NCBI GenBank assembly: GCA_905178155.1
Contig: CAJINV010000005.1
Location: 9,150,874 to 9,214,873, forward strand
DNA from: Amoebophrya sp. A120
Lineage: Eukaryota > Protista > Dinoflagellata
Direction of reading: 5' to 3'
DNA: 64,000 nucleotides
In this document: in pieces, positions 3,001 to 57,000 of the stretch
Layout: every line of letters begins with the position of its first letter
Position numbering within the stretch: position 1 is the first letter of the stretch
Notes under the pieces: model-generated
Told to the model about the DNA's origin: nothing
Databases searched by the model: none
What the model saw: the letters and a program-made list of their open reading frames with translations, nothing else
Made by a program: the position numbers and the translations under genes

Positions 3001-5785
3001 TCGCGTGCTTGCAAAGGTTGATCTTCGTTCATGGGAGAGAAGCGCACCGGAGGAACGCGTTTTTTCTGCAATTTATGGTCTACAAGAACGTGATTTGCAC
3101 TGTTCCCTTCGTTATCAAATGCAAAAATGTAGTCTGTGTCTGGGAAACTCCGAGATTTGTGATGCAGTTTTTCCAAGCTCCCCCACGTCTGAAATGCAGG
3201 GCCTAGCATCACAGATTCTGCAGTTCCTTGGTGATGCGTATTCTGCATGAGAAATGCCCTCTCAGCATGGCCAGAAGTGGGCACCTTTTGCACGTTTATG
3301 CATCACCGATCTTTGTAGGATCCGAAACACGCATCACAAGTTCGGATCCTTCCAGACCCAGACATTTTTACATTTGATATTCGTGCTCTTCGGGTTCTTG
3401 AGCAACGAGGCGAGCGGGTATCCGTACGTGTACCCGTTTCTGTATCAAAGTGAAAACACCCCTCCCCATACTAATTCGGAGATTTGTGTAGCATGATTTG
3501 GGACCACAAATCATTTTGTCATGCTAGAAGGCAGAAGATGCGAACTGTAGTGCTGGCTGGCGTGGGAAGGCCTTGCATCTTCAGCATGACAGGAGGCAAC
3601 TGGAAGGGGGGGTCAGCATGACAAATTGGCCGCAACTAAGGCCGCAGCTGCGTCTCTTGGCCTCCTGGCAATACAAACCGACTTGTGTGATGCAAATCCA
3701 GCATCACAAATTTCATGTCCGATATGGGGAGGGGGGGCGTTTCTTCACGATATTCTGTATTCGATGTTCAACACGGTCTTTACCGGAGTTGGAGTTTTCG
3801 CCTTTGCCGTGTTCGACCACGAGGATTATGCAGCAGAAGCAGAACAGCATGACAGAAAGAATCGGAAATGCAGAAACAGCATGACAACTTCCACCCCTGC
3901 AACTTTCATCTCTTGGGACCAGAAACTCATATACAACTGCGATAAAACCTACAACAAATGTGTTCCAAGTTGCCACGCGAAAAACTACAAGCACACGCGG
4001 CGGGAAAGATATGCAAGAAAAAAGCTGTGTAAGTGTAAATCTGTGATGCAGAAAATGCAAAACAGTTACACTTGTCATGCGGGAAGTGCGTCATAGGCTA
4101 CTATCGTACACGTTTCCACGTACTAGCTGCGCATGACAGGTTTTCCCTGTAAAATGCAAAACGAATCTGTGATGCTGCTCTTCCTACAAAGTTACACTTA
4201 CACAATTTTTTTCCTTGATAGAAGAACCGGTTATATCAATCCGAAACTCCTTTCCACCTGGCTTTTACTATCAATTGTAAAAATGTCTGGGTCTGGAAGA
4301 ATCCAACTTGTCATGCTGATGTTGGATTATAAAAAAATCTGTATTGCATGAGCAGCAAAGGGAGTCCAAGTTTTGCTACACGGAAAGAGCATTTGTCATG
4401 CGGTATAGGCATCAGGAAGCCCTCACAAAATCTGTGATGCTAGGGCATGCATCACAGACATCAGGAGTCATGCAAAATGTGCATGACAAACCTGGCAATC
4501 TTCCAGACCCAGACATTTTTACATTTGATATTTCCTTGGTGTGTTCCATTCAGTAATAATCCACTTTTTGGTTTTCGAGATTGGTACCGTCGGGACGAGC
4601 AATTTCGTGTTACTGAACAACTGCGGCTTACTATCCCGTGTAAAAACGTCCCCACCCCAGAGTTTTCATGCAGATTTGCAATGACAAGAACATTTGTGAT
4701 GCGCAGCCCCATGACAGGAATTTTTTATCGTGGTTTGAAATTTGTAATGCTCGAAACAGGATCATGATTAGCTGGATTTGTAGTGCGGCTGTCCTTGCTA
4801 AGAACCTGCACTACGCTACGAGCTGCAACTTGTCATGCGTGACTCCCAAAGCTTCTGGGTTTGTGTTGCAAATAAATCCCCATGTTGGCTGCGGGGCTGG
4901 GACGTTTTTACTTGGGATACTTACTTGCGTTTGGTTTAATGATCCTCCTCGCGAACTTCACACTATCCAAGAAAAAAACACCATCACAATCACTTTTGCA
5001 CAGTTTTGCAATACAAAAATTTTTGTCATGCGCAAAACTGCATCACAGTCAAGAGTTATAGGCGATTTTTATCGCCTATAACTCTTGACTGTGATTTTGC
5101 AATACAAGAAAAATTTGTTATGCGAGACAAATTTCTGATGCGAAACTTCCCAAGTGTGATTGTGATGGTGTTTTTTTCTTGGATACACACTTCTCTTCTG
5201 CCACTACGGAAGCAAGGCGAACAACTGCAGATACTTGAACGGCTTTGTTCTATTCGGCTGCCTGTTCGGGTTTTTCCTCTACCTCCCGTTCTACGTTTCG
5301 CATCTAGAAACTGGGGGCGACGAGGTGAAGACGGTGGTTGGTATTGCAGACGTCTTTGCGGGACGGGCTATCCTATGTAAAAACGTCCCCACACCAGAGT
5401 CAAGTTGGGAATCTAGCAACACAAATCTCCAAGTTTTGGGAGCTGTGCATGACAAGCTTTCCTCTGCAGTGTGGGGCTTGTTGGCAAGGGTAGCCGCATG
5501 AGAAAGCCACTTTCTGATCTTGTTTACAGCGTTACAAATAATTCCAGAACGCGACTGGTAATGCCTCCCATGGAGGTGCGCATTACAAATGTTTCTGCAA
5601 TTGCAAATCTGCATGACAACTATGGGATGGAGACGTTTTTACACAGGATACGGGTTTCTTCTTGGTACGAACTGGTCTACGACCCATACGGAATTCTGCC
5701 GATGGCGGGGTCGACAGTAGTTGGAATTTTCTTACCGTTTATCTTGGTGTCGGGGCACAGGATGATGCGGGTTCCAGATCTGTAA
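1..5785 (+). CDS. P4-type ATPase (phospholipid flippase), 5' end outside the window; multi-exon
   Basis: Motifs NNFVPISL, LLEELGHITHIVTDKTGTLTKNEM (phosphorylation Asp), ASPEEIALV, FNSDRRRMS, CKGADS, GLRTLVF, AIEDAL, WVCTGDKPETA, SRVSPKQK, AIGDGAND, then C-terminal TM segments (YKNVICTVPFV-LFGF, YSMFNTVFTG..VFDHED). Frame is restored after removing 8 TIR elements plus one 5-bp repeat each; stop TAA at 5783-5785. Confidence 0.93.
470..685. mobile_element. Introner-like element, family A (short, 216 bp)
   Basis: TATCAAATGTAAAAATGTCTGGGTCTGGAAG...CTTCCAGACCCAGACATTTTGCAATCCATA; flanks TGTTC/TGCTC; removing 216+5 nt joins ORF 142 to ORF 726 in frame. Confidence 0.88.
3113..3379. mobile_element. 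Introner-like element, family A
   Basis: Family A TIRs; direct repeat TTCGT/TTCGT; removal gives VPFV-LFGF. Confidence 0.92.
3443..3752. mobile_element. Introner-like element, family B
   Basis: TATCAAAGTGAAAACACCCCTCCCCATA...TATGGGGAGGGGGGGCGTTTCTTCACGATA; repeat TTCTG/TTCTG. Confidence 0.9.
4010..4220. mobile_element. Introner-like element, family C
   Basis: TATGCAAGAAAAAAGCTGTGTAAGTGTAA...TTACACTTACACAATTTTTTTCCTTGATA; flanks AAAGA/GAAGA. Confidence 0.87.
4269..4530. mobile_element. Introner-like element, family A
   Basis: Family A TIRs; flanks TTTAC/TTTCC; near-identical to 57658-57919. Confidence 0.92.
4632..4919. mobile_element. Introner-like element, family D
   Basis: TATCCCGTGTAAAAACGTCCCCACCCC...GGGGCTGGGACGTTTTTACTTGGGATA; repeat CTTAC/CTTAC. 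Confidence 0.92.
4964..5185. mobile_element. Introner-like element, family E
   Basis: Perfect TIR TATCCAAGAAAAAAACACCATCACAATCAC / GTGATTGTGATGGTGTTTTTTTCTTGGATA; repeat CACAC/CACAC. Confidence 0.92.
5369..5650. mobile_element. Introner-like element, family D (opposite orientation to 4632)
   Basis: TATCCTATGTAAAAACGTCCCC...GACGTTTTTACACAGGATA; flanks CGGGC/CGGGT. Confidence 0.9.
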
Positions 5786-6629: not shown

Positions 6630-9600
6630 ATGAGCAGTTTTACTCAACCTACGACCGGCAACAAACCAAGCTCTAGCCACAGCATTTCCACCGGAGACGA
6701 GAAGACCCGCAACCACTTGCTAGTACACCAACAAGGAGATCTTCGGGAGCAATTCAACAGACCGTTTACGAAAAATCCTTCCAGTAAAGAACAGCTCCTG
6801 CTCTCCTGCCCCGACTCCCCGGAAACCGACGAATCCGTGAGCATCATGGCGGATAACACACCCAAAACTCCCACCCAGGCCTGGACGGCCCCACCGAAAA
6901 CAATATCTCGTGCAAAAGTATCGTACTCGTATTAGTTGCACACATGCATGACAAATCTCTTTCCTAAGGCAAAATAGCATTACAAATTTCATTTGTTATG
7001 CTGAGCTAATTTGTCATGCGATTTATACGAGTACGATACTTTTGCAATGCATAAACAAGTGCCGGAAAGAATATTGAACCGAGTTCCGCGGCAAGCTCTA
7101 ACATCGTCTACAATGACGAACGATATTCGCCGAACGCCACGACAAACAACAACCAAAAATCGTCCCAGAAATCAACCCCCTCCGGCTATGGGAATGATGA
7201 CATGATCCGCTCCTCTAGTTCTGTCCGCTACCGACAGGGCGGGCACCCGAGGTTGTTCGAAAACATTGGGAGGACGCATGGACAATCGGTCGATGGGTTG
7301 TTAACGGATTTTTACCAAATAACGATGGCCTATGCGTATTGGAAAGCGGGGAAGCACGAACAAAGGGCGGTTTTTGACGCCTATTTCCGCAAGTGCCCGT
7401 TCAAGGGGGAGTACTGCATTTGCGCAGGTATAATTTTTGTGGTTGATAAGATAATTGAAATTTGTCTTGCAGTCGTGTGTCCAGGAGAGATGCAGTTTGT
7501 CATGCTAATACTTGAGTACAAACAAATGAAAAGGTATCAACGAGACCGTCCGCTTCCTGAACACTTTCGGCTACAGCGACAAGCAAATTGACTACCTGAA
7601 AATCCAAATGCCCACGGCGCAACCGGAGTTCTTCGACTATTTAGCACAGCTCGACGCCTCGGAATTGACGGTGATGGGGATGCGAGAAGGGGAAATCGTG
7701 TTCCCGAACCAACCTTTATTAAGGTTAGAAGGGCCATTAATCGTCTGCCAACTGCTGGAAACGACTGTTTTGAACCTTCTCAACTACCCTTCCCTAATCG
7801 CCACCAACGCGGCCCGGTACTATCAAAGGCAAATATGTCTGGGTCTGGAAGACTGCAAGTTTGTCATGCTTGTCTGGCATGACTCTCAAATCTGTGTTGC
7901 GTGAGCACGAAGAGGCTCTCTTGCATGTCGTGCAAAAACGCAGTTTGTCATGCGGAATACGCAACACCTAGCAGCCCAAAAAGTTGTCATGCTTGGCTGC
8001 GTATTGCATTGCGAATATCATTCATTTTTAGCATTACAAGTTTCGAGACCCAGACATATTTGCAGTCCATAGGTACCGGCAGGCGGCCACTTCTGGTGTC
8101 ACGGCGAGTCAAGCGTATGCAATGCAAAAGTATCGTACTTTAGTATAAACCGCATTACAAATTTCCTTAGCATGAGAAATGAAATTTGTAGTGCGGATTT
8201 ACCACAAGAAAAAGATTTGTAATGCATGACTGCAATTGCTACGAGTGCGATACTTTTGCAATGCATAAAGTGGGGCAGACGCCAAGTGCGCGGGCTTCCA
8301 TGAGCCAAAGATCGCCGAACGAGCGGGTGAATACGTCAAATGCACCGATGGGGAACGCGCCGGTGTTGATCGAGATGGGTTGTCGCCGGGCGCAAGGGCC
8401 GGACGGGGCTTTGTCCGCCGCACGATACAGCTATTTGGGCGGGTTTGACGCGACATCAAATGTGAAGGCGGGACACGTTTTTGACGTGCCGATTAAGGGG
8501 ACCCACGCGCACGCGTTTGTGACGTCGTTTAACAGTTTAGACGAAGTGAAGAGGATAAACTGCGGAAAATTGGGGGACAAGTTTGTCAGCGATGTGCTCA
8601 GCTACAGACCAAAGGTACTTACAACAACTCTATGCGATTTTGCTTACATGTAGTTGTTGAATTGAGCACAGGTTTTTGCACCGTTACTTCTATACGTTGA
8701 ATTAGCTTTCAGCAATAGCTGGGAGCTTCTACTGGTGAGGACGACAACACTCTTCTCTTTTATCTACACGCTCTATCTTTACATTTAAAACACAAAACAG
8801 ATCGCACCGCAGTCGAACGATGGCGAGTTAGCGGCTTTTGTCAGTTACGCAACGTCCTTTCCAGACACTTTTCTCGCTTTGGTCGACACCTACGACACTC
8901 TGATTTCGGGCATCCCAAATTTCCTCTGCGTCGCATTGGCGTTATTGGACCGGGGGCATAAATATGCATTGCAAAAATGTCTGCGTCTGGAAGATTGCAA
9001 CTTGTCATGCTAAATCCGAATCATGCAAAAATCTGTGTTGCATGAGTGCCAAAAGCTTTTCACTTTTGACCTAATCGAGAGGCAGTTTCTCATGCAGGAT
9101 AGGCATGATAGAGGTCGCACGAAATCTGTTATGCTAGGTCGTGTATGACAGACCTCGCGCGTCATGGAAAACCTGCATGACAAGTCTTGCAACCTTCCAG
9201 ACCCAGACATTTTTACATTTGATAATAAACCAGTTGGTGTCCGGTTGGACAGCGGCGATCTGGCTTACTTGAGTACTGTTTGCGATATATTTGAGACTTC
9301 TTTGTCATGCTAGATTTGAAAAAGGGAACACGAGATGATGAAACTTGTCATGCAGGAAAGGCACTCGACGAAAATATAAATAGGTACTTAAATTTCATTA
9401 TATCAGGTAAAGAAGCGAAGGAAATGTTTCGCGAGTGCTCGGATGGCCCGCATTGCAAAACCGTCGAAGTCCAAGAAGCATTACTAACTTTGAAGGTCTG
9501 CGCATCAAATGATATCAACGAAGTGACACTTCAATCCCTAAACGAGCAGGGGCACGGGATTGATATCTACGGAATCGGAACAAACCTTGTTACCTGCCAA

Positions 9601-10471
9601 GCGCAACCGGCGTTGGGAATGGTATCGAATGTTGTGATGAAGCATGACAAAAAATGTAGTCGATGTTCTGCATCTTTATATGAGGTGGATTTTGTAATGC
9701 AACTCTTGATGTTCTTTCATCGATCGTCCAGGTCCTTGTGGTGTCAGAATCACCTTGTTTGAAAGGTCGTTCTGCAATACAAATTTCCTCCACGACTTTC
9801 CAGGTCTACAAGCTCGTGGAACTGGACGGCGATCCGCGAATGAAGCTTTCCCAGGAGTTTAGCAAAGTGTCCGTCCCGAGTAAGAAAAAGGTGTACCGAC
9901 TGTACAACAGTAAAGAGGAGCCGCTGATTATCGTACGAAAAAAGTGTTACAGTTACACATTTGTTGGCAAAAATTCAGCAACACAAATTTCTCTGCATGA
10001 AAGAAAAAACTTGTAATGCGCGGACTACAAGGGAAAGCACGAATGAAATGAGACTGGCAAGCATTTCCTACATGACAGAGGTTGTCTGTCTTGCTTGTCT
10101 TCCATTAGAGTGTGTAACTGTAAGACTTTTTTCTCAGGATACTGATCGACCTGATGCAGCGCGAGTCCGAGGCCCCACCCAAAGCTGGGGACCGGATTTT
10201 CTGTCGGCATTTGTTCGAGGAGACAAAGCGGTGCTACGTGACACCCACCCGGGTGGAGGAGTTGTTGCACGAAGTGTGGGGAAGAACCCCCTGCGTGCCA
10301 ATGACGTTGGACGAAGCGAGGGAATTTTCGATGAACCGATTAGCCAGGTTTAGACCGGACATCTTGCGGCCGCTGAACCCCACGCAGTACAAGTTAGCGG
10401 TGTCGGACCCGTTTTTCGGGTTTTTCAAGCAGATGTGGCAGAAGTCCGCGCCGATCAAGGAGCTGACGTGA
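6630..10471 (+). CDS. NAPRT: Nicotinate phosphoribosyltransferase with a long low-complexity N-terminal extension
   Basis: [116 protein letters not shown]. Five TIR introns plus GT-AG introns at 7428-7533, 8615-8800, 9273-9406 and 9622-9803. The start codon is uncertain. Confidence 0.95.
6904..7053. mobile_element. Introner-like element, family F
   Basis: TATCTCGTGCAAAAGTATCGTACTCGTA...TACGAGTACGATACTTTTGCAATGCATA; repeat AACAA/AACAA. Confidence 0.92.
7821..8071. mobile_element. Introner-like element, family A
   Basis: Family A TIRs; repeat GGTAC/GGTAC (one of the few copies where a GT-AG register exists). Confidence 0.9.
8116..8267. mobile_element. Introner-like element, family F (opposite orientation to 6904)
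   Basis: TATGCAATGCAAAAGTATCG...CGATACTTTTGCAATGCATA; flanks AAGCG/AAGTG. Confidence 0.9.
8963..9224. mobile_element. Introner-like element, family A
   Basis: Repeat ATAAA/ATAAA; removal gives [13 protein letters not shown]. Confidence 0.93.
9929..10141. mobile_element. Introner-like element, family C
   Basis: TATCGTACGAAAAAAGTGTTACAGTTACAC...GTGTAACTGTAAGACTTTTTTCTCAGGATA; repeat CTGAT/CTGAT; removal gives PLI-DLMQ. Confidence 0.9.
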
Positions 10472-13312: not shown

Positions 13313-16300
13313 ATGGCCCCGCCCCGCAACTGTTCGTCCTCGTTCTTCTCCTCTTCTGTCGGGAATTGTCATTCCAAGCACACTGCCTCGTGCTCGTTTC
13401 GTCTTCCGCACAAGTACTACAACCGGTGGAAACGACGCTGGCTTTTCACAGTACGGACGGTCTTTCTCATCTTCTCCTCCTCCTTCCTCACGAAAATAAC
13501 TACTACTCTAGCACAGGAACAAGTGGATCATGCTGCCGAGCAGGGAGTTGACAACAACCTTTCGCCAGCCGAACAAGACGACGATGGCCGCACCCAACCA
13601 CCATCACCGCAAAAGCAGCATTTTTTCCTCTGCGTGTTCATCCCGGTCACCAAAAAATCCAAGAAGGATGTGGAGCTGTCGAAAGTCCAACTGAAAACGT
13701 GGATGACGAGTCACAAACGACACGATGTCCGGGCGTTTTTCATCGGCGAGGTTCTGTCGGAAGAGCACAGAAGTAGAACGATATCGATCATCGGCGACGA
13801 CGAACTACCGTATGACCAGCTCCCGGTCCGGACGTTCAAGATGTGGACGTATTTAGGTTTGGGCGATTGGAAGCTTCTCGCCAGGAAAAACCGGTTTCAA
13901 TTGGAAGAGGACGATATCCCACGAAAAAACTGTTCCACTGTGATGATTTTGCAAGATCTGCATCGCAAGTTCGTTACACGTGACACAGAAAATTTGCCAT
14001 GCGCGCTTCCCTAGGGAAAGCGCTGTTGACTACCTAACCTCTTGCAGGTGTAGCAAGGCAAACACTATGGTGTTTCATTTTCTGCATCACAAGTTCACAG
14101 ACACAGTGAAGCAGTTTTTTCCTGCGATAGACGAGGCGGAAGAACATGCCAGGGTGTTGAAAGAGTACAACAGAACCGGGTATCAGCGGTATAAAAGTAG
14201 AACCTTGTGGTCGAATTTTCATGGGGAGGTATTAGATAGCGGAAATCCCTCCAGTTCCGCCACCGCTACGCAAGGAGGCGATCATACTAGTAGCGCAACA
14301 GCCCCCCCCGTCAATGATCAGCATGCAGCTACGGTGCATTACGGTGGCAGAGTGCGCGGGCGCGAGAAAATCTTCAATGGAAGCAGGACAAAATCTAAAG
14401 CCGGGCCTGCTGGTACGAGTGCAGACGTAGATATGGACCGGGAGGACTCTAGTATTGTCGACGACACATCATCATCAAGGCCTGCTAGTACTACTACTGC
14501 GACCAATCTCTGGAACAGTAGCCCGAATAAAATGAATCCAGGCACTCTTGACGCGGACGAAGATGAAGATGATCACGCCTTTTACTTGGATGACAACAAC
14601 TTAGTTATCCTGAGTAAAAACGTACCCACACCAGAGTCAGGATGGGGATTTTGCAACACAAACCTAGGAGTTTTGTGAGTCACGCATGACAAGTTGCACT
14701 ATGCAGTGTAGTGCAGGTTAGCAAGTGCAGCCGCATTACAGATTCATCTGCTCATCCTGTTCACAGCGTCACAAATTCCAAAACACGACTGGAAATAGCT
14801 CTCATGGGGATGCGCATTACAAGTCTTCCTGTCTTTGCAAATCTGCATTACAACTCTGGTGTGGGGACGTTTTTACTCAGGATATTAGTTGAGCACACGG
14901 CAGTCGACACCGAAAGGTACCTATGCGCTGCAAGAAAAGTATCGCACTCGTAGAAATTGCAGATATGCATTACAACTCTCCGCTCTCAGGTGAATCAGCA
15001 TTACAAATTCCATTTTTCCCATTGGGAATAAAACTTGTAATGCAATTTCCACTACTACGATTATACTTTTGCAATGCATAATACCATCTTTGGTCCCCCG
15101 CGTTTTCTGATCAGGTGACCTGTGATTACTACATGAAAGCGGACCCCGATTCCTACGTCAATGTCCCAGCAGTCGTCGACCGGTTGCAGTGCTTCGCAAG
15201 CGACTTTTCGGAGAAAGATAGTGGGGATGATGAAGCTGTTGTACGATTTGAAGCGCAAAAAGATGAAGCAGCAGCAGCCTCTTCATCCACCGATGCCAAC
15301 AACAACCTCGAGCAGCAGATATCCACCACCTATGACGACGAATCGACCAGAACCAACTACCCAGTGCAAGTTCAAAACAAACAATACTTCGGCGTGGTGC
15401 ACGCAGTTGCGCCCGATGAACACACAGCCCTCTTTTTCGGCCACGGCGGTAGTGGCTACATGATCAACTACAATCTCCTCCACGACAACGTGGCACAGTG
15501 GTCCATTAATTGCCTATCGGAACTGATCAAAACGAGCAACGGGGTGGGGATGGAAGACGTTCTGTTCTCCCGGTGCTTACGCGACGAATCGGACAAGAAA
15601 ATCGGGGTTTTGTCCTACGGACACACTTACACGGAGTTTATTCTCAACTTCCACCAAGCGGAAAGATACATTTTGAACGGGACGAGATTACTGCACGGCG
15701 TGGACTTATTACCCCCGCCTCTATCCAAATGCACGCTCGTCGCCCACCCGATTGAGAAGCCGCAGGATTTGGTTTTAACCCACAAGCGAATAACGGATGA
15801 TTTTTCGAAACAGCAGAAACACCTAATTGACAGCCGGGCGAGTAGATCTTTGGTTCCCCCGCATATCCTGATCGAGGAAAACGACGACAGCTGTTTTCTG
15901 CAGCCGTTTTTGATCTCCAAGCAGGCGGAGGTCCGGATCAGCAAGGGCAGCGAGTCGCAATTCAACTGGAGTAAGCCACAGATGAAGCAGCTGTACGAAT
16001 GCTACTTGAAGGTGAAAAACAACAAGGAAGGGCTAAACTACGCAACCGGGAGTTCTTCCACTTTAGCCTGTGAATGGACAGCGATTGAAAACGAGAAGTA
16101 CTACGGGTTAAAACATGCCCCGTACGCGGACGACAGTTACAAGAACTGCAAACTCGCCTGTTGCGAGTCCTTCAGTTGCGCGATCTTCCTCTTTCGGGAG
16201 CGAGACGGGTGTTGGCTGGGGCACCACGAAATTGTGGAGAAGGGGAAGTTATCAAATGTAAAAATGTCTGGGTCTGGAAACTTGTGATGCAAGTCCGTGA

Positions 16301-16947
16301 GCAATAAAGTGCTCTGTAATGCGCCGCCAAGCATGACAAGTTTTTTCGTGTTCCTGTGCTGCGTATTTCGGATGAGAAACTGCGCTTTTGCATGACAGGC
16401 AAGAGGACCTCTTGGTGGCCACGCAAGACAGAGTGCAGAGTCATGCTAGACTAGCATGACAAATCTCGCAATCTTCCGTTCCAGACATTTTTGCAGGTGA
16501 TAGAAGTCCGTGTTTGAGCCGCAGTGGCGCGGCGGGATGAAGGCGAGGTTGACACGGAGCTTGCCGGTGATGTTAACGAGGAAGTTGAGGAATTTGAGTT
16601 TAGTGGGGAGAGAAGATGGCTCTGGCTCAGATTCATCTGCAGGATCGCGTGCTGAACAAGTGCCAGCCGCTTCTGGATCCACTTCGTTGAGAACCCAGAA
16701 GCAAGTAGATTCAATTCTCGATTTCTACATAGACGACATGAGGTTTAGAAACTATGCAAATATGTTGTTGAAACAGGATGAGCTTTCTTTAAATGACTTT
16801 CACAGGAGGATTTGGAACAGGTTCGAAATGCACATGCAGATGGAGAATGGTGGACTTGGGATGCAAGGACGGGCGCAAATGTACGAGAAAAAATACAATC
16901 TGCAATCAATCGCTTCAGTGAAAGAAGCAATGCGAGCTCGCTTGTGA
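13313..16947 (+). CDS. GT31-family (fringe / core-1 beta-1,3-galactosyltransferase-like) glycosyltransferase with a C-terminal Cys-rich PAN/apple-like module
   Basis: N-terminal hydrophobic segment; FFLCVFIP..KTW; LPVRTFKMWTYL; DYYMKADPDSYVN; GGSGYMIN; EDVLFSRCL; CKLACCESFSCAIFLF..GCWLG. Four TIR introns restore the frame. Confidence 0.78.
13915..14129. mobile_element. Introner-like element, family C
   Basis: TATCCCACGAAAAAACTGTTCCACTGTG...CACAGTGAAGCAGTTTTTTCCTGCGATA; repeat GACGA/GACGA. Confidence 0.92.
14606..14884. mobile_element. Introner-like element, family D
   Basis: TATCCTGAGTAAAAACGT...ACGTTTTTACTCAGGATA; repeat TTAGT/TTAGT. Confidence 0.93.
14922..15080. mobile_element. Introner-like element, family F
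   Basis: Family F TIRs; flanks GTACC/ATACC. Confidence 0.87.
16250..16502. mobile_element. Introner-like element, family A
   Basis: Family A TIRs; repeat GAAGT/GAAGT. Confidence 0.92.
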
Positions 16948-19279: not shown

Positions 19280-20282
19280 ATGTTCCAGCCCTTTATTCCC
19301 GCAACCGGCACCAGCAGTAGCAGCTCCAGCACTGCGTCTTTCCCGATCCCAGCTGCCCCTTCCACCTACAGCAGCGATGTGTTCGTCCTGTCTGCAACTA
19401 CAGCCTTCTCCGCAGCTGCCCATGGAGGTTCGGCCCTGTATAGTAACGCAGACATAGCATCAAGCAGGGCCTACAGCACTGCGGAAATTGTACACGACCC
19501 CAAGAAGAGCCATACAACGAACCCTGTCGTTCGGGAAGTGCAAAAAAACAGCTTCCGGGAAATCATCGACGAGCAAAACCCAAATTTCCATTTCGAAGGG
19601 CAGCACCAGACTACCCTCCTCACCCCGGATGAGGAAAAACAACTTTTGGAGGAGGAAATCCAGGAGTTGGAACAGTCCCTCGAGTTCACGAAAAACGAAA
19701 TTTCCCGACTGGAGCAAGGCATCGCGGATTTGAAACAGCAGCACGAAGCGCGGATGAAAAAACTGGTGCAGGAGCAAAGGCGACGGAAACAGAAGCGGCA
19801 GAAAAATCGTGAGGAGTTGAATTTGGATTTCGAGATAAACACCGAGTCGCTGTACAGGAACGATGAGAAGACTGCGTCGTATGGGACGTCGAGTACAAAT
19901 GCGAATTCCGGTACTGGAAACATCGAATATCAAGTGTAAAAGTGTCTGGGTCTGGAAGGATGTAACTTGTGATGCTGCATTGATTTGGATTCCAAGAAAA
20001 TCTGTATTGCACGAGCAGCAAAGGGAATGTAATTTTTGCGACGCAGAGAGGGCATTTGTTATGCGGAACAGGCATCAAGAAGCCCTCAAACAATCGGTGA
20101 TGCTAGGGCATGCATCACTGACATCATGGCTCATGCAAAACGTGCATGACAGGTCTCAGAATCTTGCAGACCCAGACATATTTGCAGTTGATATCGAAAG
20201 TGAAACTGCGACAACGCCAACCGGCGGGGGAACCAGCACAGGAGAGGACACGGCTGAAGACGTACTTTTTTTCAGATTGTGA
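19280..20282 (+). CDS. Hypothetical coiled-coil protein
   Basis: ATG at 19280; E/Q/K-rich heptad region (EKQLLEEEIQELEQSLE..); removing element 19928-20193 gives NIE-SETATT...FFRL stop. Confidence 0.7.
19928..20193. mobile_element. Introner-like element, family A
   Basis: Family A TIRs; repeat TCGAA/TCGAA. Confidence 0.92.
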
Positions 20283-25530: not shown

Positions 25531-25701
25531 TATCCCACAGAAAAAGACCGACAGGTCATATTTGTAATGCAAAAATAAATACACAGGAAAGTCTGTCATG
25601 GGCGAGGCCATAACATCCTGTTTAGGGCATGCAATACAGATTTTTTTGTCTATTTATTTTTGCATTACAAATATGACCTGTCGGTCTTTTTCTGGGGGAT
25701 A
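25531..25701. mobile_element. Foldback element, family G, upstream of the GET3 ATG
   Basis: Long TIR TATCCCACAGAAAAAGACCGACAGGTCATATTTGTAATGCAAAAATAAATA and its reverse complement; repeat CTAGA/CTAGA. Confidence 0.92.
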
Positions 25702-41307: not shown

Positions 41308-43744
41308 ATGACACCGAAGGGCATCTTAGCCTTTCACCCCTCCATCACTTTTCGCAACCCGCAAAACCTCGTCCACGTGCACCTACAAGAGTCCAACGCT
41401 TTTTATGCACAAAGCAAAGTATCGTACTGGAACCACGACTTCAAATTATCGCATGACAAAGTCCCGCAGCATGAAAAACGAAATTTGCAATGCTGATTTG
41501 ACAGCTCAGGACAGAGATAATTTTTTGCCACGCGTGAAGATTTCCATCAGTGGTAGTGCGATTCTGTTTTTGCATTGTCCATACCCTAGATCCAGCAACC
41601 AACAACCCGGATCCGTGCAAGATCTACTGGGACGCGCTGTACGACTTGAAGGGGGAAAAAGTGCTGAAATCCGACCAAGTTGCGATCGGCGGCGAGTGGC
41701 CCTGGTTTTTTCACGTCTGCAAGGAGAAACTGGCCACTCCAAAAAGGTTCACGCAGCTAGTAACTTACCTCAACCCGTCCGAGCAGGAAAACCTATCGGT
41801 CGGATTGGACGAACAAGGTTATTTGAACAACAACCGGAATCCGATGCAGCATATGAAATGCAAAAGTGTCTGGGTCTGGAAGAATGCAAGATTTGTGATG
41901 CAGGTTTTCCATGACGATGACCCATGAGGTCTGGAATGCGAGACCCAGCATGACAGGTTCTTGGAGGTCTCTATCATGCCTTTCCTGCATGAGAAACTCC
42001 CTCTCAACTTGGTCAAAAGCGGACAGCTTTATTTGGTACTCACGCAACACAGATTTTTGCATCATTCAGATTTAGCATGACAAGTTCTAATCTTCCAGAC
42101 CCAGACACTTTTGCATTTGATACAGCAGAAGCTGCAGGACGTGGTTTGCGACGGCCAGCAGTGCTTCATCGACGGCGATTTGCATCCGATACGGGATATG
42201 CATTGCAGAGATGTCTGGGTCTGGATGAATGGAAGGTTTGTCATGCAGGTGTTACATGACCCATGGGGTCTGGAATGCAGCACCTAGCATGGCAAATTCT
42301 GTGAGATCTTTATCATGCCTATCGCTATCCTGCATGAGAAACCCCCTCTCAACTTGGTAAAAAAGGACGGCTGTTGGTAATCATGCAACACAGATTTTTT
42401 TGCATGATTCAGACTTAGCATGACAAGTTGCCATCTTCCAGACCCAGACATATTTGCACCCGATACGGGAGGAACCGGTGGCGGATTTGAAGTGCCCCGG
42501 GGCGGAGGATCCCGGGCCCCACGCGTTAGCCGCGGCGGAGAAGTTATCAAATGCAAAAATGTCTGGGTCTGGAAGAATGCAAGATTTGTCATGCTCGGCT
42601 AGCATGACTCTTAACCTCAAGTCTGTCATGCACGTACCCAAGAGCCTCGCTTTTCTGTCATGCGGAAACGCAGTTTGTCATGCAGAATAGAATACACCGA
42701 TCACCTCAGAAACTTGTCATGCTGGAACGGCAATTGCGGTATCCTAATCATCCGGCAAACAGCATCACAAGTTTCCAGACCCAGACATATTTGCAATGCA
42801 TAGAAGTGCTACTTTAACAACCCGAAGTACGCCTGCAAGGAGGGAAAACAGTTCAAACGGTTCTACGTTGACCTGAAAAACCTGGACGCGGGAGACCGGG
42901 CGGAGGCGCACGATTTGGAGGATCTGGAGGCAAAAAAGGAGGAGAAACAGGACTCCGAATTAGGCGGGGATTCGCAGGCGGCGGAGTTGATGACGGTCAG
43001 GAGCTACGATGCGGGGGAGTGCAAGTTGAAGTCGGTGATTTACGACGAGGAAAACGTCTACTACATATGACAGTGCACAACTCCCCCTCCCCCTCATTTG
43101 TCATGCAAAACTCCGAATCCAGTCGCTACCTCATGGGACTGCTTGCATGACAACTTCCGGAAGCCGAAACAGCACTACATTGGGCATACAAATTTGTCAT
43201 GCATTGGCTCCGCGTGTGGTTGTGTGTGTATTGCTATTCATGCAATACAAATGAGGAGGAGGTGCTGGGGTTGTGCACTCTCATACTACGGGTGGTGCAA
43301 CAAGAAGTCGTTGGAGAAGAAGGCGAAAACGTTCACGTTATGCATTGCAAATGTGTGTAGTCTGGTACGGGACTTGTCATGCTAGTCTGGCATGACTCTG
43401 AACTCTGCCTTGCGTGGCCACGAAATAAAGGCTCACGTGTCTGTCATGCAAAAGCATAGCTTCTGACTCTGTTTCTGATGCGAAACAGACTAACACAAAG
43501 CCATACCAAAAATCTGTCATGCTTGACGGCGCATTGCAGTGTGCTTCTTTGTTGCTTGTTATGTAATGCGTCACAACTTTCTGGGCCCAGACATATTTGC
43601 ATTGCATACACGTTGCGCATCACCAACGGCGCGGAGGAGAACCTGATCGGGTCGGCGCAGGCGACGCTGTACGACCGGGGAACGTTAGGAAATTCGTTTC
43701 AATTCGCGTTGAATGAAAGCGCGGGGAGGACAAAGTTTTTGTAG
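41308..43744 (+). CDS. Hypothetical protein interrupted by six TIR elements
   Basis: Continuous frame MTPKGILAF...DPCKIYWDAL...EKCYFNNPKY...SAGRTKFL stop after element removal; no family recognised. Confidence 0.75.
41404..41583. mobile_element. Introner-like element, family F-like, eroded
   Basis: TATGCACAAAGCAAAGTATCGTACT...AGTGCGATTCTGTTTTTGCATTGTCCATA; flanks CTTTT/CCCTA are degenerate, but removing 180+5 nt keeps the frame. Confidence 0.72.
41852..42122. mobile_element. Introner-like element, family A
   Basis: Family A TIRs; repeat CAGCA/CAGCA. Confidence 0.92.
42197..42465. mobile_element. Introner-like element, family A
   Basis: Family A TIRs; repeat CGGGA/CGGGA. Confidence 0.9.
42545..42802. 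mobile_element. Introner-like element, family A
   Basis: Family A TIRs; repeat GAAGT/GAAGT. Confidence 0.92.
43066..43285. mobile_element. Introner-like element, family I
   Basis: TATGACAGTGCACAACTCCCC...GGGGTTGTGCACTCTCATA; flanks CTACA/CTACG. Confidence 0.88.
43339..43608. mobile_element. Introner-like element, family A (diverged)
   Basis: TATGCATTGCAAATGTGTG...CAGACATATTTGCATTGCATA; repeat CACGT/CACGT. Confidence 0.88.
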
Positions 43745-47839: not shown

Positions 47840-50800
47840 ATGGCTGTAGCATCGACCCTCCTCTCATCTGCGACGACTTCCTGTAGCGCTGAAGTTTCTT
47901 CCTCCACTGCTTCCGCTGAAAAGCCCAATAAGCAGCATCACGATTTGCAGGAACTACAACAGAAAATCAGCAAGATGGAAGTAGAACATCAAAAATCTTC
48001 TTCTTCTGCGGACAAGATGATACAAGTTGTAAATCGCGAACAACATCAAACCGCGCCGGGTCCTCAAAGCACCACGGCGACAACGACAGTATCCAAGCAG
48101 AACAAGAAGGAATGGAAGAAGAAACAGAAGGACTTGCAGGGGAGGCTGAACGAGGCATGCAGGAAGAGGAATGTAGCGGATGGTCTTGACAACAAACGAA
48201 ATCAACGCCAGCATTCCTGGACGGAAATCCAGGCAGTTTATGAAGACTGGATGGAAAACAATCCGGATGTGTATGACTTGCTCAGATGTTTTTACAATCT
48301 CAAACGTTACAATAGAGTCTGGATTTGGTCTTGCATGATGAGCATGACAGACTCGGACAGCATTCCGCTTTCTGCAATACAAATTTCCCCAGATTGTAGT
48401 GCGATTGGGGACCACTCCGGGACTTGGCATGCGCAAATTCCTATGAGAGTCGGCTAGATAATGCACTTCCTGCATCACAGATTTGCATATTGTGTCGAAT
48501 AACGTTTGAGATTGTAAAAACACCTGAGCAGGTTATAATGTGCCGAAACCGAGCTGCCTGTTCGCGCAAACCATGCAGGGAGTTGTGGAAGAAATCGTGT
48601 TGATGGTGGATAATTTTTCGTCTAGCAGTAGTAGTTCCTGCATGACAAAGACAAACCAACAGCAGCAAGCCGAAGAAGTGACGAAGATCGCCTTTTTCAT
48701 CCAAAAGGTGTTTGAGGAGGCCAAGAAGCACTTTTTCGCCTCCAATCCCAACGCAAACGCGGGCAACTCGAATTTGAAAAATCTCGAGTCCTTGTTGTAC
48801 TTGCTCTTCCGCAGTTATTGCGCGGAAATGAAGATCAGGAAGATGATGATGATGAATTTTCCTGTTGCTGGGGAAGAAGAAACGAGCAGTAGTGCTGCTG
48901 GCCGGGTATCGTCTTCGGAGCAGGTTTCGCTCATTGACAACGCGTTGGAGCAGTTTATGACATATTTCGGAACGTCGACCAATAAGAGCTGCAACACAGA
49001 GACAGAACGAGAGCCAACTTCTCATGCGACAAGCGATACAAGTAAAAAAGCCACGACGATGAAGCCGGTGCACCAGGTGAAGCTGCGCACTTTGATCCCG
49101 ATCTTCGAGATATCGCAAGAAAAAACTGTTTCACTGTAAACTTGTAATGCAGAAAATGCATCACGAAAGTGTTTGTCTTGCTACACATGCAAGACAGGCG
49201 ATTTTTAATGGTGTTTTCCCTCAGGATCCTCGCATGGCAAATTTTCTTTGTAATGTGTAGCGAACTTGTAATGCAAAACTTGCAAAATCCTGACAGTCAA
49301 GCAGTTTTTTCTTGCGATATGAGATGTTTGCGTTGTCAGGGGGTTTTTCCGTCGGGGATAGTAGTAGAACTACAACTACACTACACCAAGAAGCTCCTTC
49401 TGCTCCGTCCAGTACAACTTCTGCTGCACACGACACCAGCAAGAACACCAGAAACTACTTCGCGGAAGCGGAATTATTCTATGAGCAGCAAGTGGCGAAG
49501 CGGTTTTTGCAACACCAAGATCCAACCGCTAGTGGGTCATCGACTACAACATCAACTGGTCCCTCCGGGTACATGAACACGGCGTCGATTATCATGCACT
49601 CGGTGACCAGAAATTCTTCTGTGCAAATTAACGACGACCAGAAAAATTGGGAGTGGCTGTTTCTCTTCCGGATCGAAACGTTACTGAACAGCAAGGCAGA
49701 TGAAAATAAGTTGGAAAAGCTGCAAACCCTCTTAGCCGAGATGGCGAAGGTTTGCCCGCGGCTGGGATTGGTCAAAGCCGACGAGGAAGTAACTTCGGAT
49801 AACACGACCATCCACCTAGACCGCGGAATGGGCGCCGCGACGACGGGAACAAATGTAACCGTGAAGTCCAAGCTTTTGGATTTACTCAGAAAGTTTAATT
49901 ACAGAATTCTGACGGATAAATCCATTATATCTGACGAAACGGGGATCTGTGATTCTACAAATCTCAAGCTGCAGCGCAAAAACCTCGTTTCAAAGGGGGA
50001 ATTGGAGAAACTGCTGCGGCTGATAGAGCGGTTAGCAACGGAACAACAGCAGCAGACGTCTTTTGCAGGTTTTAGCACGCCAAGTAGCTCGCCGGCACCC
50101 TCGGTGGTTTCGGAACAGAATGGAGCGGCGGGTGAGAAAAAAGTTGGAGCGGCTGTTGTTCCAGGAAGTGTAGTTCCGCCTCCTCCTGCTGCTGCAACGG
50201 ACACCTCCCGCGTGAGAAGTTCCAATTGTTCAGAGGAAGCGCCGGGTGCTGGTCCTCGTAACAGCAGCCACAACTCCCTCACCCTTCTCGAGCGCTGGCA
50301 GCTGTTCCGCTATGCGGTTTTGGAGAAGCAATTTTTGCACGAAGGGGCGAACGATCAATACGACTGCGTCCTAGACGGCGCGAATATCGGCCACCACTCG
50401 CAGAACCACGACAGGGGCGCTTTTTCGCTGGAGCAAATCGACCTGGCGATGGAGGAGTGCAAGAAACTGGGGAGGAAACCTCTGGTGATCCTCCGGGAGC
50501 ACTGGTGTCGGGACAGAGCGAAGATTTTATTGAAAGCGGAGCACGAGAGGACCACAACTACTGCTTCGAATATTAAACTTCTAGACGACAAGGGCCACAA
50601 AGCGGCGAAAAGGAGAAAGCTCGCGCCGTTGGGAGCGGATAATATTAACACTACTAGCGGGATGAAAATGTGTCATCCTCTTTCGCGGGACCAAGGATCC
50701 TCGGTGAGCTCGAGGGATTCAGGATCAGCAGCGGATAATTTAGGACGACTCGATTCATCCGATGTAGTACCGCGACAGGCATCTTCATCTTCCGTGTCCT

Positions 50801-51948: not shown

Positions 51949-52239
51949 GTGTCATATGTCTGCTCAAGCCCTGGTCTACAACTTCGCTGAGATTTTTACA
52001 CCCTAATTGAGACTGGCAATGTTTTTACTGCGACTGTGGAATTGCTTTTTGTTTTCGCGAGATATGTGATGAACAAAAAGTGTTGACTACTACTTTTCTG
52101 CATTCGCAGAGATTGAGCTGCCAGCATTGAGTGGCAAGGGTGTTCGCGTCTTTAGTGTTGTTAGTGCTTTTACAAATTTGATAGCAGGATTATCGACCAG
52201 CAATGAAAAATCAAAAGAAGACCAAGCGGGGGCTCTCTT

Positions 52240-54070: not shown

Positions 54071-57000
54071 ATGGCCACAACCAACACCATATCCTATGTA
54101 AGAACGTCTCCATGCAGCTTGTGATGCAAATCTGCATGCTGGAAACATTTCGCATGCGGAGCCCCATGAGAAGTAATTGCCAGTCGTGTTCCGGAATTTG
54201 TCATGCTCCAATCAGCACCATATACTACATCTGTGATGCTGGTTTACTAGCGAAACAGGACCACACTAGCACGAGGTCAAACTTGTCATGCGCAAGATCC
54301 AATGCTTGTTGATTTGTCTAGCAGATTTCCCATCTTCACTATAGCGTGGGGACTTTTTTCCACAGGATACACCAGTTTCGATCTCCTCCCGGGCCTCGGG
54401 ACCATGCCAGGCTTTATCCTGTGCAAAAGTATCGTACTCGTAGTAATCGCAATTATGCAATACAAATCTTTTTCCTAAGGTGAGTCAGCATTACAAATTC
54501 TATTTCTCATGCTGAGGGAATTTGTCATGCGATTTCTACTTAGTACGATACATTTGCAATGCACAGGCTTCGTGAAAGAGCGATACGAGCACCGCCCCGT
54601 GAAGCACAAACTCAATCTATTACGCGCGAAGTGGGATCGGGTTCTGGCGGAGAAGGTAGTATAATTGTGAAATTCGACGGTGGATCACGAACACGGAGTG
54701 TACCTCTTCTGCTGCGTGACAAGAAATGCAAATTACAAAGTTTGCAACCGGGTCAACAGCACCCTCAGTCGTTCTTGTGATTTTTCAATTGCAAATCTCT
54801 CAGTCATCTGCTATCGTATTTATCAGGAGCCGTCAGTCCCGCCGAGTCTGGTTCACAGCAAGTACAAATCCGCGGGTCTGACCGACTATTCTCTGCAACA
54901 GTATCGTACTCGTATTGCAGTCCTGCATTACAAATTTGTTTGTGAAGGTAAACTCGCATTACAAATTTCATTTCATCTCATGCGGAGGAAATTTGTAGTG
55001 CATTTATACGAGTGCGATACTTTTGCAATGCATACCGACGACAATGCCGGGGAGTTCAGTCCTGCGAAGATGCGCGCGTCCTTGAAATATGCATTGCAAA
55101 TATGTCTGGGTCTGGAAGAATGCAGGAGTTTGTCATGCAGATTTTGCATGACCCATGAGGTCGGTGATGCATGCCCTAGCATCGGAGACTTTGCGAGGGC
55201 TTTCTCATGCTCGTACCGTATGAGAAATGCCCTCTCCGCGTAGCAAAAATGACACCACTTTTGCTGTTCATGCAATACAGACTTTATGTAGAGTTCAGAG
55301 GTAGCATCACAAGTTGCATCCTTCCAGACCCAGAGACTTTTGCATTTGATATGAAAATGCAGGACAGCCGGAACAAGGTCATTTTGCCCGGGAATCTAGT
55401 TTTACCGGTGCAAAAACAGGATACAGCGAAATTCTATTTCCACGGAGCTGCGAGTGCGAGTGCGACGACTCGTCCGACCGCCCTGTCTGACGGAATGCTG
55501 CTGTCGTCGTTCCAACACGGAGGTGGACAGATGAATCCGCACGACGACTATTATCCACCAGCCTCCGGCGGAACAAGCTTTCAGTCCTCTACGGGGATGA
55601 AAAAGACCACGAGCGTGAACAAATTCGAGAACAAATTCGATTACGACAAAAACGTCGATTTAAACCGACGGGCCTCGCTCCCGACCTACCACAGAGGTGG
55701 TGGTAGTGACGGGCTGATGAAAATAAAAAACACCAGACCCGCAGCGCATCTTCCGCCAAAACCGCTTTTCGGGTCTTCCTCCTCCTCTTCCTCGTCGAAC
55801 CTAAAAAGAACTTCTTCGCCGAAGAACGTGGTAAAGACAGCTTCTGGAACAACTACATCTGCACCAGGCATGACAGCCAGTCCGCTCCTGTTTACTATTC
55901 CAAATGCCGCTTCCGCCTCGCCCGGGAGCCCCGTGAGAACGTCAAGACAAATGAATTACACAAACACCCGGATGAACTACAACTACGGCTCTACAACTGT
56001 CTCCGATTTCTCCGCGAAGATCCACTCCGAGTATCAGTCTTTGATGAAGTCTATCAAATGTAAAAATATCTGGGTCTGGAAAAATGGAACTTGTGATGCT
56101 AACTTTGGACTCTAAAAAAATCTGTATTGCATGACCAGCAAGAGGAGCCACATTTGTGCTACGCGAGGAGGGCATTTGTCATGCGGAAATGGCATCAGGA
56201 AGCTTTCCAAAAGTCTGTGATGCTGGGTCATGCATTACAAGCACCATGGGTCATGCCAGACAAGCATGATAAGCCTTGCGGCGCATATCCTTGCGGGAAC
56301 GTATTGAGCCCTTCAAGTATATTCGCCCTACTTTTGCATGCGCGGCGTGGGGGTTTGGATTTATTGTCGGTCTGCCATTTGCTCTCATTCGGTCGTGGGG
56401 CCTCACAGAAAGATATAGAAATCGTGCTCGTGCTGGGCGGGGAAAAATTGCATATGGGGCAGTAGATGTAGTTGTAGTCTGCATAGATCGTCATTGTGAC
56501 TATTTCCCTTCTAGTTTCCTCACAAACCCTGGTAGATTTTTATGTAGAATTACTTATGCAGAAGTACACTCGGAAGAATGGCGCACCGCAGAGAGAGCAG
56601 GCGAGAGAGCGGACGAGCGAGCGGCATGCGCGAGCAGCATGAGCGAGCAGCATGAGCGAGCGGCGCCGCGGCAGCGCCCGCGAAGCGAAAGCCTACGGGG
56701 CCCGGCCCAGAAGCAAAAAAGAACAAACCCGCGGGGGCCTCATGCCACTCATCCTCGGCAAGCCGGAAGGCCGCAGCCCCGGCAGTAGCAACAGTGGCGG
56801 CAGTAGTAGCAGTGCACTATCTAGATACTAGCTTAAAAGGGTCGTAGCGCAAAGAAAGAGGGGCAGTCCACAGAGGCTTTTTTGCATGGGGTCCACTGGT
56901 CACCGTTTCGCGCGAGCCATTCGGTGGACGACTGACCCCGCCCCATTTAGATAGCCGCTATGCGGGAGCTTTGTAAAAACTGGACTTCGTCCGTCTCCGG

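What the first reader, a model, noticed from the sequence alone, without database searches (positions are those of the whole stretch)
3443..55351. Removal appears orientation-independent and mostly lacks GT-AG: structure-defined splicing or DNA-level excision
Seen: five families occur in both orientations within + strand genes (A 4269 vs 38187/55088; B 3443 vs 37746; C 13915 vs 23122; D 4632 vs 5369; F 6904 vs 8116). The junctions must fall within arbitrary 5-mers (CACAC, AACAA, TTCTG, CTTAC), so GT-AG is usually impossible; GGTAC at 7821 is an exception. The terminal 3 nt pair, positions about 4-8 often mismatch between the two ends of one copy, and a long stem follows. Inference: strand-specific branch-point or polypyrimidine signals are unlikely to define these introns. 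Candidate mechanisms are a hairpin-guided modified spliceosome, endonuclease/ligase splicing, or precise DNA excision resembling ciliate IES removal.
Basis: partly seen in the sequence, partly recalled or inferred. Interest (0 to 1): 0.88.

Follow-up and report, generated by a model that had tools for sequence, protein, structure and literature searches.

The report
Transposon introns spliced without GT-AG, bidirectionally
In a marine parasite (Amoebophrya), small transposon copies sit inside genes in either direction, stay in the DNA and are missing from the spliced RNA without the usual GT-AG signals; this intron class is already published, but here the cut appears fixed by the transposon's own ends, likely read by a modified spliceosome.

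Summary
Window exons are 100% identical to proteins named Amoebophrya sp. A120. The elements are the introner elements of Farhat 2021: TAT...ATA inverted ends, 5-nt direct repeat (TSD). RNA-like contigs lack 12 of 12 elements in 2700-10500, each with exactly one TSD copy, in both orientations for families A, D and F. DNA-like contigs keep them, so DNA excision is not supported. GT-AG is reachable in 2 of 47. Added here: ten imperfect TSDs share one register only, after TSD base 4, giving n-TAT...ATA-nnnn. This puts the element's T, A at donor positions +2, +3, as in the gene's GTAY donors, and fits all nine top A120 motifs in Farhat's Table S4 (NT-NN). Orientation independence follows from symmetric ends, so it does not rule out spliceosomal signals. 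An AG preference seen in the window did not replicate in 227 elements from another assembly. Mechanism: end-guided spliceosome 0.55, Euglena-like non-spliceosomal 0.36. One earlier scan note on another genome describes a similar position-defined intron family.

The parts
470..685 (+). Family A element, forward; TSD TGTTC/TGCTC
   Evidence: absent from P0001, cut 3-7
3113..3379 (-). Family A element, reverse; TSD TTCGT
   Evidence: RNA joint 3107>3380 by record arithmetic
3443..3752 (+). Family B element, forward; TSD TTCTG
   Evidence: RNA joint, 315 skipped
4010..4220 (.). Unassigned element; TSD AAAGA/GAAGA
   Evidence: RNA joint, cut 1-5
4269..4530 (+). Family A element, forward; TSD TTTAC/TTTCC; predicted intron 4268-4534
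   Evidence: RNA joint, cut 4-6
4632..4919 (+). Family D element, forward; TSD CTTAC
   Evidence: RNA joint
4964..5185 (.). Unassigned, nearly palindromic element; TSD CACAC
   Evidence: RNA joint
5369..5650 (-). Family D element, reverse; TSD CGGGC/CGGGT; predicted intron 5368-5654
   Evidence: RNA joint, cut at most 4
6904..7053 (+). Family F element, forward; TSD AACAA
   Evidence: RNA joint
7428..7533 (+). Canonical GT-AG intron, donor GTAT
   Evidence: RNA joint
7821..8071 (+). Family G element, forward; TSD GGTAC (GT-AG possible by slide 1)
   Evidence: RNA joint
8116..8267 (-). Family F element, reverse; TSD AAGCG/AAGTG; predicted intron 8115-8271
   Evidence: RNA joint, cut 4-5
8615..8800 (+). 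Canonical GT-AG intron, donor GTAC
   Evidence: RNA joint
8963..9224 (+). Family A element, forward; TSD ATAAA
   Evidence: RNA joint
9273..9406 (+). Canonical GT-AG intron, donor GTAC
   Evidence: RNA joint
9622..9803 (+). Canonical GT-AG intron, donor GTAT
   Evidence: RNA joint
9929..10141 (.). Unassigned element; TSD CTGAT
   Evidence: RNA joint
13915..14129 (+). Family C element, forward; TSD GACGA
   Evidence: removal inferred from 946-codon ORF
14606..14884 (-). Family D element, reverse; TSD TTAGT
14922..15080 (.). F-like element; TSD GTACC/ATACC
16250..16502 (-). Family G element, reverse; TSD GAAGT
19928..20193 (+). Family A element, forward; TSD TCGAA
23122..23324 (-). Family C element, reverse; TSD ACCGC
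   Evidence: absent from P0122
23758..24067 (.). Unassigned element; TSD CGCCA/CGCCG
   Evidence: absent from P0122
24113..24375 (+). Family A element, forward; TSD GCCGG/GTCGG
   Evidence: absent from P0122, cut 2-5
25531..25701 (.). Palindromic element; TSD CTAGA
   Evidence: removal not tested
26222..26485 (+). Family A element, forward, in ArsA-family gene; TSD TGCGT
28206..28458 (-). Family G element, reverse; TSD GGTGG (GT-AG possible by slide 1)
31012..31291 (-). Family D element, reverse; TSD AGAGC/GGAGC
31350..31571 (-). Family C element, reverse; TSD TGCAG
31943..32205 (.). Element starting TAC instead of TAT; TSD TGCCG
   Evidence: open frame after removal, no RNA test
34023..34305 (+). 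Decayed family A element, repeats CAACC/CGCCT, right end GTA; removal uncertain
35831..36097 (+). Family A element, forward; TSD CCGAA/CGGAA
   Evidence: absent from P0121, cut 2-5
36496..36757 (+). Family A element, forward; TSD GGGTT
   Evidence: absent from P0121
36947..37258 (+). Family B element, forward; TSD TGGAT
   Evidence: absent from P0121
37402..37690 (+). Family D element, forward; TSD AGTTG
   Evidence: absent from P0121
37746..38065 (-). Family B element, reverse; TSD GGAGC
   Evidence: absent from P0121
38187..38582 (-). Family A element, reverse; TSD GAAGT
   Evidence: absent from P0121
41404..41583 (.). Old element whose repeats have decayed (CTTTT/CCCTA) yet element+5 is still missing from the annotated protein
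   Evidence: P0121, cut 0-4, no other length fits
41852..42122 (-). Family A element, reverse; TSD CAGCA
   Evidence: absent from P0121
42197..42465 (-). Family A element, reverse; TSD CGGGA
   Evidence: absent from P0121
42545..42802 (+). Family G element, forward; TSD GAAGT
   Evidence: absent from P0121
43066..43285 (.). Unassigned element; TSD CTACA/CTACG
   Evidence: absent from P0121, cut at most 4
43339..43608 (+). Family G element, forward; TSD CACGT
   Evidence: absent from P0121
48272..48537 (.). Unassigned element; TSD ATGTG
49111..49319 (-). Family C element, reverse; TSD CGAGA/TGAGA
54090..54369 (+). Family D element, forward; TSD CACCA
   Evidence: P0123 starts MATTNT-SFDLL across it (read by eye; the scripted test reached past the start codon)
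54415..54565 (+). Family F element, forward; right end ACA; TSD GGCTT
   Evidence: absent from P0123
54887..55034 (+). Family F element, forward; TSD CCGAC
   Evidence: absent from P0123
55088..55351 (-). Family A element, reverse; TSD TGAAA
   Evidence: absent from P0123
56052..57583 (+). Long (1532 nt) family A element; TSD AAGTC
   Evidence: absent from P0123
57658..57919 (+). Family A element, forward; TSD CCGGT
   Evidence: absent from P0123
61732..61880 (+). Family F element, forward; TSD GTTGC/GGTGC
   Evidence: absent from P0123, cut 2-7
61936..62217 (-). Family D element, reverse; right end ACA; TSD GCTCG/TCTCG
   Evidence: absent from P0123

Best explanation
These are Amoebophrya A120 introner elements, short transposon-like copies with inverted TAT...ATA ends and a 5-nt target duplication that stay in the DNA and are missing from spliced RNA together with one duplicate in either orientation, likely cut at a fixed distance from their own ends by a modified U2-type spliceosome. 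Shown: removal of element plus 5 nt in both orientations; retention in DNA-like contigs; arbitrary target sequence. Strongly inferred: the cut lies after base 4 of the duplication on both sides, so the intron reads n-TAT...ATA-nnnn and the direct repeat is a by-product of insertion, not a splicing guide. Inferred: symmetric ends give the transcript the same signals whichever way the element lies; the inner stem (positions 8-26) would bring the ends together and set the 3' cut by distance. Least certain: catalysis by the spliceosome reading U+2, A+3, (Y+4) of TAT as a donor with G+1 and the acceptor AG no longer required.
For: RNA level: 11 listed joints plus 1 by arithmetic = 12 of 12 elements, each skip = length+5, in contigs that also lack 4 GT-AG introns; A+ 4269/8963 and A- 3113, D+ 4632 and D- 5369, F+ 6904 and F- 8116. 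Annotated proteins P0001, P0121, P0122, P0123 lack 31 elements, including reverse 37746, 38187, 55088, 23122. DNA-like X1 contigs run into element ends at depth 39-46 with 0 differences. Register: left copy kept at TSD positions 1-4 in 7 of 7 informative sites, right copy kept at position 5 in 3 of 3 (4 RNA sites; 6 protein sites). Published Table S4: 9 of 9 top A120 non-canonical motifs are NT-NN and 9 of 9 A25 motifs TT-NN. Spliceosome: 4 of 4 RNA-confirmed canonical donors are GTAT or GTAC, matching n-TAT at +2..+4; in 121 elements anchored on an inner motif the 5' TAT has 0 changes in 363 bases, the 3' ATA 6 (p 0.03); 3 of 4 5' variants in a relaxed set are TAC; 83 of 89 spliceosomal proteins and U2, U4, U5, U6 reported in A120.
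Against: No residual donor G or acceptor AG: in 227 oriented elements of another assembly AG at the intron end 21 vs 18.6 expected and G+1 77 vs 70.2 after phase correction; the window's 9 of 47 AG did not replicate. The same genes keep exact GT-AG introns, which suggests two recognition modes. A stem reaching to 1 nt from the donor and 4 nt from the acceptor would have to be unwound for U6 and U2 pairing (inference), and no conserved branch motif lies outside the symmetric end. The register rests on 10 sites: for the first 9, chance is 0.012 for this register but 0.12 for any single register; only two sites (4269, 8116) set the lower bound of 4. The RNA runs are one sample, typed 'RNA?' by guess, contigs only; the annotated proteins come from an RNA-guided annotation and may share their data. 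No lariat, circle or inhibitor data.
Confidence: 0.55

Rival explanations
1. Same elements, same RNA-level fixed register, but removal by a dedicated non-spliceosomal system (endonuclease plus ligase, or a circularising reaction) that measures from the terminal hairpin, as proposed for Euglena nonconventional introns.
For: Target sequence is arbitrary after phase correction. Ends are symmetric in transcript orientation. Exact GT-AG introns coexist. Euglena has an analogous rule, N3CDG...CH'G N5-6, with introns excised as circles (PMC12501133 passages; PMC11282704 passages). G-U exceeds A-C mismatches weakly at positions 8-26, 162 vs 124 (p 0.03, one of six ranges, copies not independent). [quoted passage not shown]
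Against: The register puts T, A exactly at donor +2, +3 (about 1 in 16 by chance, inference). The 5' TAT is more conserved than the 3' ATA. Predicted pairing of the terminal triplet is low in some exactly removed copies (0.01 for 6904, 0.36-0.39 for 8963). No bulge-helix-bulge geometry: both cuts lie outside the stem. U1-70K, U1A and U1C are listed for A120.
Confidence: 0.36
2. Precise excision from DNA in the transcribing stage, like ciliate internal eliminated sequences.
For: Transposon-like ends and one-repeat-left products look like such sequences. DNA from the intracellular stage was not examined, and only 15 of 1877 joints were listed.
Against: X1 contigs carry element ends joined to flanks at even depth; 8 of 16 borders are bridged by 31 or more letters on both sides, the rest by 23-30 (table 8, counted by hand); none of the 15 listed joints is an empty site. 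The same contigs that lack elements lack GT-AG introns. Recalled: Amoebophrya has no separate germline nucleus, so progeny could not regain the elements.
Confidence: 0.03
3. The joined forms are reverse-transcriptase template switches across a hairpin between direct repeats.
For: Hairpin plus short direct repeat is the known recipe for such artefacts (recalled). All RNA evidence here is cDNA-derived.
Against: All 12 RNA-tested elements put an in-frame stop into P4-ATPase or NAPRTase genes if kept. A switch guided by the copied 3' repeat would tend to keep right-copy bases, but left-copy bases are kept at positions 1-4 in 7 of 7 sites. The 41404 element, with decayed repeats, still loses length+5.
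Confidence: 0.02
4. RNA editing creates GU and AG at the pre-mRNA ends before ordinary splicing.
For: Mature contigs cannot show editing inside the intron, so this was not testable here.
Against: Published: 3% of A120 introns have possible editing in their first or last 2 bases (Table S5). No changed letters at exon junctions. Up to 3 arbitrary bases per intron would need changing.
Confidence: 0.02

Closest known systems
Amoebophrya A120/A25 introner elements (Farhat et al. 2021, PMC7789003)
   Same: Same organism by 100% protein identity; ends TAT + 7 nt + at least 3 A; 3-5 nt direct repeats; non-canonical borders; hairpin; MITE-like spread; mechanism open.
   Different: Nothing in kind. The paper calls the border position variable or unknown (Fig. 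3 legend), and its 'orientation' passages that I saw concern gene orientation only; two-way insertion and the single register are refinements made here.
Euglenid nonconventional introns (PMC12501133, PMC11282704)
   Same: Free terminal bases, paired inverted ends at a fixed offset from the cuts, slidable repeats, coexistence with GT-AG introns, proposed MITE origin.
   Different: Offset N3 / N5-6 with CDG...CH'G and a purine after the 3' cut, against N1 / N4 with TAT...ATA and no flank preference here; circles are reported there, untested here.
Fritillaria borealis non-GT-AG introns (PMC13326754 passages, PMC11282704)
   Same: Transposon-derived non-canonical introns handled by a U2-type spliceosome.
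   Different: They keep preferred terminal dinucleotides (AG-AC, AG-AT); here only +2 T is fixed.
Canonical introners of Micromonas, Aureococcus, Polarella (PMC9860276 passages; others recalled)
   Same: Non-autonomous DNA transposons with TIR and TSD; one TSD copy removed on splicing.
   Different: They supply or co-opt GT/GC and AG; these do not.
Ciliate internal eliminated sequences (recalled)
   Same: Transposon-like ends, one repeat left behind.
   Different: Those are cut from somatic DNA; these remain in DNA-like contigs.

Membership tests
Amoebophrya A120 introner elements | Host is Amoebophrya A120 | tested here: met
   100% identity to proteins so named, 3 of 3 searches
Amoebophrya A120 introner elements | Inverted ends TAT + 7 nt + at least 3 A | tested here: met
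   Position table, A at 11-13 in 42-46 of 47; definition
Amoebophrya A120 introner elements | 3-5 nt direct repeat at the exon/intron border | tested here: met
   33 of 47 perfect 5-mers; 228 of 271 in another assembly
Amoebophrya A120 introner elements | Removed from RNA with non-GT-AG borders | tested here: met
   12 of 12; GT-AG reachable in 2 of 47
Amoebophrya A120 introner elements | Repeated families | tested here: met
   Six families by interior BLAST
U2-type spliceosomal intron | GT(GC)-AG ends | tested here: not met
   3 of 47 reachable; none at register 4; no AG or G+1 bias
U2-type spliceosomal intron | Donor +2 T, +3 A | tested here: met
   By register 4; depends on that register
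U2-type spliceosomal intron | Lariat with 2'-5' branch; spliceosome dependence | not testable with these tools
   Only contigs were available
Euglenid nonconventional intron | N3CDG...CH'G N5-6|R signature | tested here: not met
   Ends are n-TAT...ATA-nnnn with no flank preference; works alike, not a member
Ciliate-type eliminated DNA | Empty site predominant in transcribed DNA | tested here: not met
   Filled sites at full depth in X1; rare or stage-specific excision not excluded
tRNA-type (TSEN/RtcB) intron | Bulge-helix-bulge with cuts across a 4-bp helix (recalled) | tested here: not met
   Cuts lie 1 and 4 nt outside the stem base in arbitrary sequence
MITE of a named superfamily | Cognate transposase with the same ends | tested here: inconclusive

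The most novel reading that the evidence does not exclude
Amoebophrya A120 has a second, non-spliceosomal splicing machine that measures one base before TAT and four bases after ATA, turning any copy of these transposons into a scarless intron in any sequence and either orientation.
Probability: 0.35. Interest if true: 0.85.

Novelty: already known. Interest (0 to 1): 0.45.

Why it matters
How Amoebophrya removes tens of thousands of introns with no GT-AG is an open question since 2021. A single register (n-TAT...ATA-nnnn), independence from orientation and from the direct repeat, and the match to donor +2/+3 turn it into exact predictions: lariat 5' ends one base before TAT, 3' ends four bases after ATA. 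Either answer matters: a spliceosome that has dropped both G+1 and the acceptor AG, or a second splicing system convergent with Euglena's. It also gives a simple rule for annotating these genomes.

Tried and rejected
AG preference at TSD positions 3-4: 9 of 47 in the window (p 0.003), but 22 of 236 vs 15.3 raw (p 0.055) and 21 of 227 vs 18.6 after phase correction; rejected. G at the last intron base: 71 vs 69; rejected. Strand-specific differences between the 5' and 3' ends at positions 4-26: none, all p above 0.28. Stop content as the cause of the phase bias: similar in all phases. 2026 raw RNA runs X10 and X11 did not cover the window's exons: no evidence either way. No RNA holder was listed on record; X3-X6 are RNA by guess and by loss of GT-AG introns. 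Rfam: 0 hits in the window. No whole genome held, so U1/U5/U6, PRP8, TSEN and RtcB were not inventoried; the spliceosome list is from the paper. Huff 2016 was not held. Rows dropped: 3 of 50 window candidates with wrong borders (two later delimited as 31943 and 41404; 34023 remains uncertain); 9 of 271 elements with TSD under 4/5; 26 of 262 with weak strand calls; 9 of 236 with short flanks. Two frames used (54090, 54415) differ from P0123.
Full report
Identity. Three exon queries each returned one 100%-identical protein named Amoebophrya sp. A120: P0001 (P4-ATPase), P0121, P0122. A fourth, P0123, came unnamed from the representatives library. Pfam shows P4-ATPase, NAPRTase, ArsA and a sub-threshold PRORP gene. 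Farhat et al. 2021 (PMC7789003; I read sections 10, 11, 12, 16, the later methods, search passages and supplement part 3 of 5; figures are not held) describe A120 introner elements with ends 'TAT, seven less-conserved nucleotides, at least three As', 3-5 nt direct repeats and 65% non-canonical introns. The window's elements fit this.

Observation. Scripts found 47 well-delimited elements plus three degenerate ones. Removing element plus one repeat restores + strand frames of 1236, 1198 and 946 codons; other removals do not. GT-AG is reachable by sliding in 2 of 47. The ends pair at positions 1-3 and 8-26 and poorly at 4-7. A bipartite end, with a short tip and an inner binding part separated by a loose spacer, is ordinary DNA-transposon anatomy (recalled), so the gap needs no RNA explanation.

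RNA or DNA. Contigs of X3-X6 (one sample; RNA by guess) laid on 2700-10500 show 15 listed joints: 11 elements and 4 GT-AG introns. The one hidden joint is 3107>3380 by record arithmetic. Every element skip equals length+5. Both orientations of A, D and F are removed, D and F within single genes. X1 (type not on record; flat depth over exons, introns and intergenic DNA) has contigs entering element ends with 0 differences at depth 39-46. Contigs drop rare variants and only 15 of 1877 joints were listed, so rare excision is not excluded, but bulk DNA keeps the elements. The annotated proteins lack 31 elements, including reverse copies 37746, 38187, 55088 and 23122; that annotation is RNA-guided and not independent. 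For 13915 only frame restoration is available.

Register. Where the two repeats differ, the product tells which base survives. RNA: 4010 cut 1-5, 4269 cut 4-6, 8116 cut 4-5, 5369 cut at most 4. Proteins: 470 cut 3-7, 35831 and 24113 cut 2-5, 61732 cut 2-7, 43066 and 41404 at most 4. The only common value is 4, so the intron reads n-TAT...ATA-nnnn. For the first nine sites the chance is 0.012 for this register and 0.12 for any single one, so the window alone is suggestive. Independent support: all nine top A120 motifs in Table S4 are NT-NN and all nine A25 motifs TT-NN. The paper mentions four nucleotides of repeat upstream of the 5' end but leaves the border as variable or unknown. The 41404 element loses length+5 although its repeats have decayed, so the repeat is likely not the guide. 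Keeping left-copy bases also argues against template switching.

Wider sample. Their best matches to the window were 67-76% and lay over elements. A codon model, right for 44 of 47 window elements, oriented 236. All six families occur both ways (108 and 76 of 184 assigned). After phase correction the target is arbitrary, and the transcript's 5' and 3' ends are indistinguishable at positions 4-26. This removes my first lead, an AG bias. It also shows why orientation independence is expected under any mechanism that reads the ends, spliceosomal or not.

Mechanism. For the spliceosome: register 4 aligns TAT with +2..+4 of this genome's donors (GTAT, GTAC, GTAC, GTAT); the 5' triplet never varied in 121 copies found without assuming it, the 3' one six times (p 0.03); TAC is the usual 5' variant; the terminal triplet is not always predicted to pair; the A120 spliceosome is nearly complete. 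Two of the four canonical acceptors lack a pyrimidine tract. Against: no trace of G+1 or AG; exact GT-AG introns side by side; a stem that would need unwinding; and Euglena's analogous offset rule, thought to be non-spliceosomal (passages of PMC12501133, PMC11282704). I put 0.55 on an end-guided spliceosome, 0.36 on a separate machine, and 0.07 on DNA excision, artefact and editing together. Confidence that removal is RNA-level and defined by the ends is about 0.9.

Novelty. The class is published, and PMC12130899 (passages) treats A120 introners again. In six searches I saw no statement of two-way removal or of a single register for A120; 'orientation' passages seen in Farhat's text and supplement refer to genes. 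Figures 3, S19-S23 and papers outside the library (Roy 2023, Huff 2016, Henriet 2019; not seen) could hold it. PMC9860276, PMC13326754 and PMC12005148 were seen as passages only. An earlier scan note reports a similar position-defined family in another genome; I did not check it.

Unexplained. In the other assembly 126 of 236 insertions fall in phase 0 at register 4, against even thirds for mock sites, and local sequence does not account for it (p 2e-6 to 5e-5). The window shows little of this (18/14/14 of 46).

Verdict. Real, known in kind, with a testable refinement; interest 0.45.

Noticed in passing
L001-L137 (oriented elements): Phase-0 excess at register 4: 126 of 236, mock sites 788/763/750; not explained by local sequence or by stop content. 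Weak in the window.
   Followed up: partly
window 56052-57583: 1532-nt family A element with unrelated interior, absent from the annotated protein; one of its ORFs scanned, no Pfam hit.
   Followed up: partly
window 62397-64000: B-like left end whose partner lies beyond the window; P0123 stops matching at 62398 and continues, so a long element or intron starts here.
   Followed up: partly
element ends, positions 4-7: The two ends of a copy match at position 4 in 118 of 236, about what independent draws from two variants would give; ends may be reshuffled or simply unconstrained.
   Followed up: no
window 58567-60810, 28492-29857, 38959-40332: Tandem arrays of 108, about 160 and about 296 nt lying inside long introns of P0123, the ArsA gene and P0121.
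   Followed up: no
window 7428-7533 and 8615-8800: Canonical introns end in A-rich sequence without a pyrimidine tract.
   Followed up: no
window 8973-9047 (run X10): About 200 raw RNA reads carry a family A end joined to a foreign flank, one locus only: an element kept in an abundant RNA, perhaps of another strain.
   Followed up: no
window 30914-32547: Gene with signal-peptide-like start and a PWCYT motif across element 31943; kringle-like by recall, not tested.
   Followed up: no
window 49324-51945: PRORP-like domain, E 4e-9, below the Pfam cut-off.
   Followed up: no
window 16250, 38187, 42545: The same target GAAGT occurs three times among 47 elements.
   Followed up: no
window 3380-10500 (run X3 record 2): One 4612-nt contig spans the P4-ATPase and NAPRTase genes; may reflect overlapping transcripts or assembly.
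   Followed up: no
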